DNA from: Eledone cirrhosa
Lineage: Eukaryota
DNA: 64,000 nt
Assembly: GCA_964016885.1 (NCBI GenBank)
Contig: OZ024756.1
Span: forward strand, 40,982,001-41,046,000
Direction of reading: 5' to 3'
Below the pieces are notes generated by a model, which was given only the letters and a program-made list of their open reading frames with translations, was not told the origin of the DNA and did no database searches. The position numbers were made by a program, and so were the translations under genes. Of this stretch, positions 34,458-36,998 are shown piece by piece (within the stretch, counting starts at the first letter, position 1; every line of letters begins with the position of its first letter).

Positions 34458-36998
34458 CTACAGCATACCTTCCTCTGTTTCAACTTGGTTTTCTCCATTA
34501 GGAAGTGACTGTACATCCTGTGAATGACTTATCACATTGGACTCATTGTCCATATCTGCAGACACAGAACTGCTATTTTCAGTTGGAATTATGGGTTTCT
34601 GTACAGGTAATTCCTCCGTTGCAACAGTTGGTTGCTGAGAAATTTCAGAATTATCTTTAACTACAATAGATTCTTTGTCATCATCAGCAACAGGCACTTG
34701 TTCAACAGAACCAGAAATGTCTATCTGCTCAGCACTGCTTGGACCATTCTCTGTAGATTTATCATTTGCTATTTCATTTTCAGCTGCTACATCCTCAGTG
34801 TCACTGTCACCCTCTCCAGGTGTTATTTCAACATCACCTGTTGGTCTTACTTCTGTTGCTATCGTCTCTGCTGCTTCTTTTACTTGTTCAGCCTCGTCAG
34901 CTGATACTTTCTCTTCTTCTACATCACTGCTATTATCCACATTTGTTTCAGGTTCTGAAGGGGTTGTCTTTTCAATTTCAACTAAAACTGATCCAACTTC
35001 TGTCTGTTCTACCTCAACAGTTTCCTCCTCTTTTTTTTCTTCTGATGGAATTTCCTCTTGTACAACAGCTTCTTGTTTTTCTACTTCCTCTTCAGTTTCC
35101 AAATCTTCTTTGTGGGGTTCTTCAACCACAGCCTCTTCTGGTTCTCCAACTTCTGCCTCCTTTGGTTCTTCAACCACAGCCTCTTGAGACTCTTCAACCT
35201 CTTCCACTTGTGATTCTTCAACTGCAATCCTTTGTTGTTCTACAGCTTCATGTTGCTTTTGCTCAATTTCCTGGTGAACCTCTTCTAATACTGCTTCTAC
35301 TAAGCACTCTTCGTAGGGTTTTTTAACTGGTTCTTCAACAACTGTTTTCTCTTCAGTATCCACTAAAACTGGGCTTTCTGTTGATTGTATCTCTTCAGCA
35401 ACAGCTTTAACAGCAATAGCTGCTTCTTCTGTTGGAAGTAATAAGTCCTCTTCATAGGCACCTTTAGGAGAAGGTAATGCTGAAGGTACTTCAGCTGTCA
35501 TTAAATCAGCTGACAAAATATTGTTAGATTCAGTATGTTCACTTTTGAAGATGTCTTCAGTTTTCTCTTCATGAGACTCTTCTTCCACATGTGGTGGTGG
35601 AGGAGGAGGCAAGCTATCTTCTACTTGTTGAGCAGCGGTCTCTTCAATTTCTTGCTTTACAGTATCAACAATAGTGTCTACACTGGTCTCAGTGACAGCT
35701 TCAACAATGTTTCCACTGTCAACACTGGTTTCTTGAAGTTCAACCTTCGGCATAACCAGTGCATCAACACTAGTTTCAGTAGTGTCAGGTTCAATAACCT
35801 TACCACTATCCACACTAGTCTCAGCATCGTCCAAATCAAGGGGAACAGCTGGAATATCAACAGGTTCTTCTTTAGCAACTTTATCTTCAATAAGTTCTTT
35901 AACATCACTACTATCAACATCGGATGTAACTACAGTAGATGATTCATCTTTATTAGTTGGAAGAAATTTACCAATTAGAGAGGAGGGCAATGATTCAGAG
36001 ACGGTTGAAATAACAGTGGCTACTTTCTCTTCCACGACAGGAACAACCACTTCTTCGACTTTATCAGCAATTTTAGACACACCTTCTTTTACCTTTTCCG
36101 AAGCAACATCTACAATACCAGCTACACCTTCTTTTGATTCACTTTCAACTTTTTTCACTTCAGTAACTGTTTCGGAGACAGTGGTGATAATTGGCTCAGA
36201 TTTAATTACTTTGCTGGACTGTTCACTGAAATGTTGTACCTCAGTGACTACATCATCTTTCGTAGGAGCTGATTCAATAGCAGAGCCAACTGAGTCTGAA
36301 AATTTACTAACAGATGAAGTAACTACTGTTTTATATTCTTGAGTGGAGCTGCTTGTTACTTTGCTTACTGATTCAGTTGCACTGCTTGTAATTTTGGTTA
36401 CGGAATCTGATATATTGTTACTAAGCGTCTTCACAGAATCGTTAGTACCAGACACAACTTTACTAACTTGCTCAGAAGCACTACTTGTAACTTTGCTCAC
36501 TTCTTTAGTGACCAAAGTCTTACATTCTTCAGTAACCGACTTCACAACTTCAGATGCAACCTCCATTGCAGTTGCTTTAATATCTGCAGAAACATCTTTT
36601 GTCTCAACTACAACATCATCAGCTTTCTTCTCAATAGTAGATTTAACTTCTTTAGTCACTTCTGAGACAGTTGAAGCAGCTTCAGATGTCGCAGATACTA
36701 CTTCATCTTTCTTCTCCTCAATTGCAGCTTCAGCTTTAGCAGCTTCTGAGCTTACAGCCTCTCCGGCATCTGTCACATTTTTCAATATGTCCAACTCAGT
36801 TTTATCTAATTGTAAAGCTGCAGTTCCTTCCTTGTTCACCTCAACACTAACCCCTTGTAAAAGTGGTTCTTGAGCATTTTCCCCAGAAGCTGCAGGACGT
36901 TCAAATAATACATTTTCTTCATTTTTTTCAACAGGCTTATCAACTAAATTCTCTTCCTCAGCCTCTTTTTTGGCTTGTTTTCCTAAAGAACACCCCAT
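34458..36998 (-). CDS. Intronless 846-aa acidic, probably disordered, putatively N-myristoylated/palmitoylated membrane-associated protein
   Basis: 2541-bp ORF in non-repetitive DNA. ATG context AAG-ATG-G with an in-frame TAA 12 nt upstream. N-terminus MGCSLGK; E/V/S/T/K-rich with no Trp; diverged protein-level repeats. Long S/T/F-rich antisense ORFs are its mirror image. Confidence 0.9.
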   Translation of the reverse strand: MGCSLGKQAKKEAEEENLVDKPVEKNEENVLFERPAASGENAQEPLLQGVSVEVNKEGTAALQLDKTELDILKNVTDAGEAVSSEAAKAEAAIEEKKDEVVSATSEAASTVSEVTKEVKSTIEKKADDVVVETKDVSADIKATAMEVASEVVKSVTEECKTLVTKEVSKVTSSASEQVSKVVSGTNDSVKTLSNNISDSVTKITSSATESVSKVTSSSTQEYKTVVTSSVSKFSDSVGSAIESAPTKDDVVTEVQHFSEQSSKVIKSEPIITTVSETVTEVKKVESESKEGVAGIVDVASEKVKEGVSKIADKVEEVVVPVVEEKVATVISTVSESLPSSLIGKFLPTNKDESSTVVTSDVDSSDVKELIEDKVAKEEPVDIPAVPLDLDDAETSVDSGKVIEPDTTETSVDALVMPKVELQETSVDSGNIVEAVTETSVDTIVDTVKQEIEETAAQQVEDSLPPPPPPHVEEESHEEKTEDIFKSEHTESNNILSADLMTAEVPSALPSPKGAYEEDLLLPTEEAAIAVKAVAEEIQSTESPVLVDTEEKTVVEEPVKKPYEECLVEAVLEEVHQEIEQKQHEAVEQQRIAVEESQVEEVEESQEAVVEEPKEAEVGEPEEAVVEEPHKEDLETEEEVEKQEAVVQEEIPSEEKKEEETVEVEQTEVGSVLVEIEKTTPSEPETNVDNSSDVEEEKVSADEAEQVKEAAETIATEVRPTGDVEITPGEGDSDTEDVAAENEIANDKSTENGPSSAEQIDISGSVEQVPVADDDKESIVVKDNSEISQQPTVATEELPVQKPIIPTENSSSVSADMDNESNVISHSQDVQSLPNGENQVETEEGML

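What the first reader, a model, noticed from the sequence alone, without database searches (positions are those of the whole stretch)
36078..36764. 11-mer amphipathic repeats and synuclein-like KEGV motifs in an invertebrate protein
Seen: VSKVTSSASEQ/VSKVVSGTNDS/VKTLSNNISDS/VTKITSSATES/VSKVTSSSTQE/Y, with hydrophobic residues at aa 167, 178, 189, 200, 211 and 222, inside a Pro-free stretch (aa 46-244) with looser 11-periodicity upstream. ESKEGV and KVKEGV follow, 15 residues apart (aa 287-307). Known: 11/3 helices rich in small residues bind curved membranes or lipid droplets in synucleins (KTKEGV), perilipins and group 3 LEA proteins; synucleins are considered vertebrate-specific and also end in an acidic tail. 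Inference: a convergent synuclein/perilipin-like membrane-binding module. The KEGV match may be compositional chance.
Basis: partly seen in the sequence, partly recalled or inferred. Interest (0 to 1): 0.75.

Follow-up and report, generated by a model that had tools for sequence, protein, structure and literature searches.

The report
Octopus Sp17 exon with synuclein-like helix
An octopus gene related to the sperm protein Sp17 holds a giant extra exon whose protein starts with a likely fatty-acid anchor and carries an 11-residue-repeat helix predicted to bind lipid surfaces, which resembles synuclein and perilipin in chemistry but shows no detectable kinship with them.

Summary
The minus-strand ORF at window 36998-34458 (846 aa) has a Pro-free stretch (aa 46-244) with a hydrophobic peak at 97-98 degrees per residue. 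None of 300 shuffles reached it, and Octopus orthologues keep it. It is not a synuclein. No Synuclein, LEA_4 or PDB match appeared, and Perilipin scored 11.8 bits against a cut-off of 33. The first KEGV is missing in O. bimaculoides, O. sinensis and O. vulgaris. The ORF lies in intron 1 of the Sp17 (SPA17) gene, between the RIIa docking exon and the shared 'ETGHDP' exon that leads to IQ motifs. It ends in a phase-matched splice donor, and O. sinensis RefSeq models join it to 3-6 IQ motifs. It starts MGC, a likely myristoyl/palmitoyl signal, and aa 1-54 are invariant. A separate short MG first exon, as in abalone and mussel, also lies in the window. Best reading: an octopod-specific alternative first exon giving an acylated, largely disordered protein with a lipid-folding 11/3 helix, made with or without calmodulin-binding IQ motifs. 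Lipid binding, acylation, the splice junction and tissue are untested.

The parts
34469..36998 (-). Large coding exon (843 codons + 1 nt), inferred alternative first exon of the Sp17/SPA17 multi-IQ gene
   Evidence: Lies between the RIIa exon (G000:C17:41104200) and the ETGHDP exon (C17:40952238), same strand. Joined to ETGHDP in O. sinensis models P0003/4/6/7.
34458..36998 (-). Stand-alone 846-aa ORF obtained by reading through the donor (ends GML-stop)
   Evidence: O. bimaculoides P0002 and O. vulgaris P0005 end the same way. Contigs of 4 runs from related organisms run through the donor (RNA is only a guess).
36837..36998 (-). N-terminal aa 1-54, invariant in four octopods; starts MGCSLGK, a predicted N-myristoylation (G2) and S-palmitoylation (C3) signal followed by KQAKK
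   Evidence: 54/54 identity to P0002, P0003, P0005. Fits the myristoylation pattern used (pattern recalled). Acylation untested.
36588..36764 (-). Upstream amphipathic stretch aa 79-137: looser 11-periodicity, acidic, tolerates a 1-residue indel
   Evidence: muH 0.28 at 99.5 deg.
36270..36587 (-). Main amphipathic stretch aa 138-243, including seven 11-mer units (aa 167-243): hydrophobic at unit positions 1/4/5/8, 44% Ser+Thr, net charge 0, D/E at the polar apex
   Evidence: AlphaFold single-sequence model is helical over 138-242, pLDDT about 55-73.
36123..36134 (-). First KEGV (aa 289-292), not conserved
   Evidence: KD--AG in P0002, P0003, P0005.
36042..36137 (-). Short amphipathic helix aa 288-319 holding the conserved KVKEGV (window 36078-36095); lysines interfacial, acids at the apex (synuclein-like layout)
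   Evidence: muH 0.44; 4 of 5 K interfacial; 6 of 7 D/E at the apex.
34470..35978 (-). Long acidic, Pro-containing region (aa 341-843), predicted disordered; aa 746-843 strongly conserved
   Evidence: Net charge -24 (aa 331-460) and -92 (aa 461-846); 94/98 identity over 746-843.
34463..34468 (-). Splice donor GTATGC after AAG, phase 1, matching the phase-1 acceptor of the ETGHDP exon
   Evidence: No junction-spanning read was seen here.
4317..4371 (-). Candidate short myristoyl-plus-basic first exon (18 codons + 1 nt, phase-1 donor), likely the counterpart of the abalone and mussel MG first exon
   Evidence: Best non-ETGHDP tblastn hit for Haliotis P0059/P0062 in 174 kb (41% over 17 aa, E 0.76: weak on its own).

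Best explanation
The repeats are a real 11/3 amphipathic pattern in a large exon inside intron 1 of the octopus Sp17 (SPA17) gene, which likely serves as an alternative first exon encoding a probably myristoylated and palmitoylated, mostly disordered protein whose aa 79-243 and 288-319 are predicted to fold into helices on a lipid surface. Mechanism: the acyl anchor at MGC would bring the chain to a membrane (inferred from the motif). The long, weakly hydrophobic Val/Ser/Thr helix would then adsorb through many weak contacts. It would favour curved or loosely packed surfaces over charge-driven binding, because the core is neutral and lacks aromatic residues (inferred by analogy with Plin4 and ALPS helices). 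The acidic region would act as a spacer. Use of the donor at window 34468 would add 3-6 IQ motifs and make a membrane-tethered calmodulin-binding form (modelled in O. sinensis RefSeq). Read-through gives an 846-aa form with no IQ. The likeness to synuclein is convergent.
For: Periodicity beyond chance. Moment and composition lie in the range of known lipid-binding 11-mer helices: aa 167-243 is 29% hydrophobic, 2.6% aromatic, 18% charged, against Plin4 35%/0.2%/15% and alpha-synuclein 47%/2%/24%. Substitutions in aa 138-243 are conservative: 12 of 13 against 59 of 114 elsewhere for O. bimaculoides, Fisher p 0.006; 8 of 10 against 57 of 114 for O. sinensis, p 0.10. The nearest Pfam echoes, all below cut-off, include lipid-surface helices: Apolipoprotein E 1.7e-4 and the Perilipin profile positions 92-162, E 0.12. 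Gene context: RIIa exon upstream (Pfam RIIa E 1.2e-13; best PDB match SPA17, E 3e-16); ETGHDP and IQ exons downstream, in order, same strand; all three first exons end in phase 1. Of 45 stored proteins with the ETGHDP motif, 38 begin with RIIa, 3 with a short MG exon (Haliotis 2, Mytilus 1) and 4 with this exon (all O. sinensis). So other molluscs already swap the first exon at this junction.
Against: No lipid-binding, acylation, localisation or tissue data. Hydrophobic positions 1/4/5/8 equally define hendecad coiled coils. The core is no more conserved by identity (86-88%) than the protein average (85%), and less than aa 1-54 or 746-843. O. sinensis and O. vulgaris carry I203H on the hydrophobic face and a 1-residue deletion at 227. 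All three relatives have a 1-residue insertion near 129. Orthologues were found only in Octopus, so deep conservation is untested. No splice junction was seen. Contigs of 4 of 4 runs laid go straight through the donor, and two species are annotated stand-alone. A linker exon needed to keep the frame between the ETGHDP exon and the first IQ exon was not found in this assembly.
Confidence: 0.55

Rival explanations
1. The 11-mer region is a hendecad coiled coil or helical bundle that oligomerises the protein; only the acylated N-terminus touches the membrane.
For: Hydrophobic residues at unit positions 1, 4, 5, 8 are the hendecad pattern (PMC6975979 passage). AlphaFold gives long helices.
Against: The core is 44% Ser+Thr with Val as the main apolar residue and few charges, and has lower mean helix propensity than the flanks (0.51 against 0.41 kcal/mol; scale recalled). 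This is poor material for a water-soluble coiled coil (inference). No fold match at E<=0.001.
Confidence: 0.2
2. The ORF is an independent single-exon gene nested in the Sp17 intron; the IQ-bearing forms are a rare splice or an annotation fusion. This rival concerns gene structure, not the helix.
For: O. bimaculoides and O. vulgaris proteins end GML. Contigs of 4 of 4 laid runs cross the donor without a loose end there. A separate short MG exon already fills the conserved role.
Against: A canonical phase-1 donor three codons before the stop matches the downstream acceptor. Four O. sinensis RefSeq isoforms use exactly this junction. The GML end that overlaps the donor is kept in three species.
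Confidence: 0.3
3. The periodicity is a by-product of old 33-bp duplications in a disordered spacer and has no helical function.
For: Units 1, 4 and 5 share 23-24 of 33 nt. A 33-bp minisatellite elsewhere in this genome, with a stop inside the match, translates to synuclein-like 11-mers (muH 0.37 at 97.75 deg) and passes the Synuclein cut-off.
Against: The order inside the unit is itself amphipathic (181 of 20000). The periodicity continues into aa 79-165, where no sequence repeat is seen. About 200 aa are Pro-free. Substitutions are conservative. Tandem Repeats Finder sees no array here.
Confidence: 0.13
4. It is a true invertebrate synuclein homologue.
For: One conserved KVKEGV in a helix with interfacial lysines, followed by an acidic region. 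The pattern K.K[EQ][GQ]V occurs in only 196 of 20000 shuffles of the whole protein.
Against: No Synuclein Pfam match. The genome-wide Synuclein HMM search does not list this locus. No synuclein among the PDB sequence matches up to E 10. One motif instead of 6-7 repeats; 846 aa; sits in the Sp17 locus.
Confidence: 0.02

Closest known systems
Sp17 / SPA17 (RIIa docking domain + IQ), mollusc multi-IQ form
   Same: Host gene: RIIa exon, ETGHDP exon and IQ exons lie in order around the window exon.
   Different: This exon would replace the AKAP-binding RIIa domain with 843 residues carrying a predicted acyl anchor and amphipathic helices; found only in Octopus among the databases searched.
Perilipin 4 / perilipin 11-mer region
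   Same: 3-11 periodicity, small hydrophobic residues, almost no aromatics, low charge, lysines on one side of the polar face (asymmetry of Plin4 charges from the PMC6164224 passage).
   Different: No PAT domain; Perilipin HMM 11.8 bits against cut-off 33; about 165 aa against about 950; little Gly; predicted acylation. The octopus perilipin gene is elsewhere (G000:C1576).
alpha-Synuclein
   Same: 11/3 amphipathic helix followed by an acidic region; aa 288-319 has interfacial Lys, apical acids and one KVKEGV.
   Different: One conserved motif instead of seven; neutral Ser/Thr-rich core; no sequence match; about six times longer; predicted lipid anchor; optional IQ motifs.
GAP-43 / Drosophila Igloo (calpacitins)
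   Same: The spliced form has the same plan: N-terminal acylation signal, acidic disordered body, IQ motifs (plan of GAP-43 and Igloo recalled; family grouping from the PMC9618489 passage). The Atlas puts the Haliotis MG isoform near 'Neuromodulin' and 'Igloo' clusters (0.87, 0.86; lead only).
   Different: None of the six IQ motifs read in this genome has Ser at the GAP-43 PKC position (position recalled). No 11-mer region is known to me in GAP-43 or Igloo. Orthology to igloo was not tested.
Group 3 LEA proteins
   Same: Tandem loosely conserved 11-mers.
   Different: LEA 11-mers hold about three Lys and three acids; these hold about one of each. No LEA_4 match.

Membership tests
Synuclein | Match to the Synuclein profile (PF01387) or to solved synuclein sequences | tested here: not met
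   Pfam; genome-wide HMM: window not listed; PDB.
Synuclein | Six or seven imperfect KTKEGV repeats in 11-mer register | tested here: not met
   One conserved KVKEGV; the other KEGV is absent in 3 of 3 relatives; repeat count from PMC9775291.
Synuclein | Interfacial lysines and apical acids along the helix (layout recalled) | tested here: inconclusive
   Met for aa 288-319 (4 of 5 K, 6 of 7 D/E); not for aa 167-243 (3 of 7 K) or 79-137 (1 of 8 K).
Synuclein | Lipid-induced helix, presynaptic location | not testable with these tools
   Needs CD and imaging.
Perilipin | N-terminal PAT domain / Perilipin profile above cut-off | tested here: not met
   11.8 bits against 33, at profile positions 92-162 only; true PAT hit on C1576.
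Perilipin | 11-mer amphipathic region of small hydrophobic residues | tested here: met
   against Table 1 of PMC5889406.
Perilipin | Lipid-droplet localisation | not testable with these tools
   Needs cell imaging.
Group 3 LEA | LEA_4 match; polyampholyte 11-mers with about 3 Lys and 3 acids | tested here: not met
Sp17/SPA17 gene | RIIa-type D/D exon most similar to SPA17 in the same locus | tested here: met
   85 kb upstream, same strand.
Sp17/SPA17 gene | Shared ETGHDP exon and IQ exons downstream, phase-compatible with this exon | tested here: met
   one linker exon further downstream not found.
Sp17/SPA17 gene | Transcripts that join this exon to the ETGHDP exon | tested here: inconclusive
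   Four O. sinensis RefSeq models have the join; no junction seen in laid contigs.
Calpacitin (GAP-43, neurogranin, Igloo) | IQ motif with the PKC-site serine (recalled) | tested here: not met
   0 of 6 IQ motifs read in G000 have Ser at that position.
Calpacitin (GAP-43, neurogranin, Igloo) | Neuronal expression and calcium-regulated calmodulin binding | not testable with these tools
   No tissue labels.
N-myristoylated / dually acylated proteins | Met-Gly start with a permissive position 6 and nearby Cys | tested here: met
   MGCSLGK, upstream in-frame stop 5 codons before the ATG, invariant in 4 octopods. Motif only; the modification itself is not testable here.

The most novel reading that the evidence does not exclude
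Octopods built, from a new giant exon of the Sp17 gene, a neuronal lipid-anchored protein that combines a synuclein-like curvature-sensing 11/3 helix and acidic region with GAP-43-like calmodulin-binding IQ motifs that are switched on by splicing. It would be a functional stand-in for vertebrate synuclein and GAP-43 in the largest invertebrate brains.
Probability: 0.15. Interest if true: 0.85.

Novelty: new variant of a known kind. Interest (0 to 1): 0.52.

Why it matters
Synucleins are described as having no invertebrate counterpart (PMC9775291 passage). An independently evolved 11/3 lipid-surface helix in octopods would be a natural test of which features of such helices matter: length, small hydrophobic residues, lysine placement. 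The locus also suggests something not found in my paper searches: the mollusc Sp17 gene appears to switch its N-terminus between an AKAP-docking domain and acylation signals, which would move a multi-IQ calmodulin-binding protein from cilia or flagella to membranes. That raises a testable link between Sp17 and the arthropod GAP-43-like protein Igloo. Public annotations of the protein ('golgin subfamily B', 'IgA1 protease autotransporter-like') are uninformative and can be corrected.

Tried and rejected
Homologue searches beyond Octopus: residues 1-350 (only the 7992 best candidates scored), residues 1-78 and a profile against 1.84 billion representatives returned Octopus proteins only. Lengths outside 465-1481 aa were not searched. 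ESM Atlas for aa 1-345: no usable hit. Fold search of the low-confidence model (pLDDT 57.8, pTM 0.31): no match at E<=0.001. Four-copy complex of aa 138-243: no answer, score 0.01; not used as evidence. Sequencing runs: no RNA holder listed. The ETGHDP exon had no cover in 4 runs, so the junction could not be tested. Linker exon between the ETGHDP and first IQ exon: not found by tblastn or local alignment in G000:C17:40932001-40962000. Genome-wide Perilipin hits on C1 and C2 and the Synuclein hit on C10 were opened and are 21-bp and 33-bp minisatellites; the C9 hit and the second C1576 hit were not opened. Earlier findings of the scan: nothing by place, words or sequence. Neel and Young 1994 on Igloo is not held. 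Paper searches listed no title on this octopus protein or on acylated Sp17 isoforms; only listings were seen for most, and the library lacks most subscription papers. Rejected: the KEGV pair as evidence (half not conserved; two KEGV in 22 of 20000 shuffles, but picked after the fact); overlapping plus-strand ORFs (antisense shadows of the exon).

Full report
Observation. The finding lies in a minus-strand ORF at window 36998-34458 of 846 aa, covering aa 79-307. Every quoted feature is there: the 11-mers with V/Y at 167-222, the Pro-free stretch 46-244, and the two KEGV motifs 15 residues apart. Shuffles reached the observed peak in 1, 0 and 0 of 300 cases. The acidic tail (aa 461-846) shows no such peak (41 of 300). 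Because a duplicated unit inflates significance, I also permuted the columns of the unit: 181 of 20000 reached the observed moment. The register drifts along the region, so it is a set of 11/3 segments, not one perfect helix.

Relatives. The exact protein is not in the collection. Three searches found Octopus only: O. bimaculoides (859 aa) and an O. sinensis/O. vulgaris cluster of 5, about 85% identical. The window is therefore from an octopod. Residues 1-54 are identical in all four species and aa 746-843 are 94/98 identical, whereas the repeat core is 66-68 of 77. Substitutions in aa 138-243 are mostly conservative (12 of 13 and 8 of 10, against about half elsewhere; p 0.006 and 0.10), and the moment is kept (0.365-0.387). 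Against strict constraint: I203H and a 1-residue deletion in O. sinensis and O. vulgaris, and a 1-residue insertion near aa 129 in all three. The first KEGV is replaced by KD--AG in all three; KVKEGV is kept.

Four O. sinensis RefSeq isoforms continue past this exon into an ETGHDP segment and 3-6 IQ motifs. In the window's genome these exons lie downstream on the same strand and in order, from C17:40952238 to about 40842900. The window exon has a donor (AAG|GTATGC, phase 1) three codons before its stop, and the ETGHDP acceptor is phase 1. A search with the IQ region (303 hits, best 120 listed) brought up mollusc Sp17-type proteins. Of 45 stored proteins with the ETGHDP motif, 38 start with an RIIa docking domain, 3 with a short Met-Gly exon and 4 with this exon. 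The RIIa exon is in this genome 85 kb upstream; it matches Pfam RIIa and SPA17 structures best. A candidate short MG exon with a phase-1 donor lies at window 4371-4317; its similarity to the abalone exon is weak (E 0.76). So the locus likely has three alternative starts. Caveats: contigs from 4 of 4 runs of related organisms cross the donor unspliced (RNA status is a guess), no junction was observed, two species are annotated stand-alone, and one linker exon was not found. Both a short and a long product are plausible.

What the helix looks like. In aa 167-243 the apolar face is unit positions 1/4/5/8, acids sit at the apex, and the repeated Lys lies about 150 degrees off the apolar centre on one side. 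It is 44% Ser+Thr, neutral, 2.6% aromatic. This is closer to Plin4 (small hydrophobic residues, asymmetric charges; PMC5889406 passages with part of Table 1; PMC6164224 passages) and to the Ser/Thr polar face of ALPS motifs than to synuclein. The short helix at aa 288-319, which holds KVKEGV, does have interfacial lysines and apical acids. Among the 119 non-octopus proteins stored, 1 reached a 66-residue moment of 0.35 or more, against 0.40 here; this is a rough background only.

Family tests. No Synuclein or LEA_4 match; Perilipin and Apolipoprotein far below cut-off; no synuclein among PDB matches; no fold match. The Synuclein HMM run over the whole genome does not list this locus. Its one hit is a 33-bp minisatellite with a stop inside the match that passes the cut-off, which shows how cheaply KEG-type 11-mers arise. 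The real perilipin gene is on another contig.

Mechanism. Shown: sequence, periodicity, conservation in Octopus, position in the Sp17 locus, phase-compatible donor. Inferred: myristoylation and palmitoylation at MGC (pattern recalled), folding of the 11-mers on lipid with a preference for loosely packed or curved surfaces, spacer role of the acidic region, calmodulin binding by the spliced IQ motifs. I put this at 0.55. Hendecad coiled coil 0.2 (pattern from PMC6975979 passages); functionless duplication relic 0.13; true synuclein 0.02. Independently of these, a nested stand-alone gene 0.3.

Literature seen. Passages only: PMC9618489, PMC6164224, PMC5889406, PMC11276731 (61, Sp17 domains), PMC6975979, PMC9775291. 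Neel and Young 1994 was seen only as a reference title; properties of Igloo and GAP-43 are recalled. Nine searches listed no title on this protein. No supplements were read.

Verdict. A real feature and a new variant of a known kind: a lineage-restricted 11/3 amphipathic module grafted, with a predicted acyl anchor, onto the Sp17 multi-IQ gene. The synuclein-like motif is mostly chance or convergence. Interest 0.52.

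Noticed in passing
window 4371-4317 (-): Candidate third first exon of the Sp17 gene: short Met-Gly start, basic cluster, phase-1 donor; resembles the Haliotis and Mytilus MG first exons.
   Followed up: partly
L009:1501-1653 (-), G000:C17:41104048-41104200: The RIIa exon of Sp17 appears to end in a GC-type donor (AAG|GCAAGA), phase 1.
   Followed up: no
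P0074, P0079, P0022, P0099 (C-termini): Bivalve and nemertean Sp17 multi-IQ proteins end in CTIL (a CaaX-like end). P0074 has a Pex19 domain over cut-off (E 1e-16). Either an Sp17-Pex19 fusion or read-through shared across phyla, or a repeated annotation fusion.
   Followed up: no
P0059 aa 1-200: The abalone MG isoform of Sp17 is nearest to arthropod 'Neuromodulin' and 'Igloo' clusters in the Atlas (0.87, 0.86; lead only). Igloo may be the acylated isoform of the arthropod Sp17 locus.
   Followed up: no
L023 (G000:C10:53864450-53864695, -): A 33-bp minisatellite translates to synuclein-like 11-mers and passes the Pfam Synuclein cut-off (24.2 bits against 23.3) with a stop inside the match: a false-positive trap.
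   Followed up: yes
L021-L022 (G000:C1:201331501-201347500) and L025: 21-bp minisatellites with long open frames on both strands (up to about 3100 codons in L021) give spurious Perilipin HMM hits.
   Followed up: yes
L024 (G000:C1576:31902-32102): The octopod's perilipin PAT-domain exon (E 1.5e-10).
   Followed up: partly
window 34470-34763 (aa 746-843): The acidic end of the exon is 94/98 identical across four octopods, more than the 11-mer core; unexplained constraint, possibly a binding motif or RNA-level signal.
   Followed up: no
G000:C17:40935700-40952158: The exon for the roughly 26-aa linker seen in O. sinensis between the ETGHDP exon and the first IQ exon was not found; the two flanking exons are not phase-compatible without it.
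   Followed up: partly
L005 (G000:C17:40867030-40867323 region): An IQ exon of the same gene encodes a poly-His run ahead of two IQ motifs, conserved in O. sinensis.
   Followed up: no
window 35116-35222: 24-bp tandem repeat (4.5 copies) inside the exon's most variable part.
   Followed up: no
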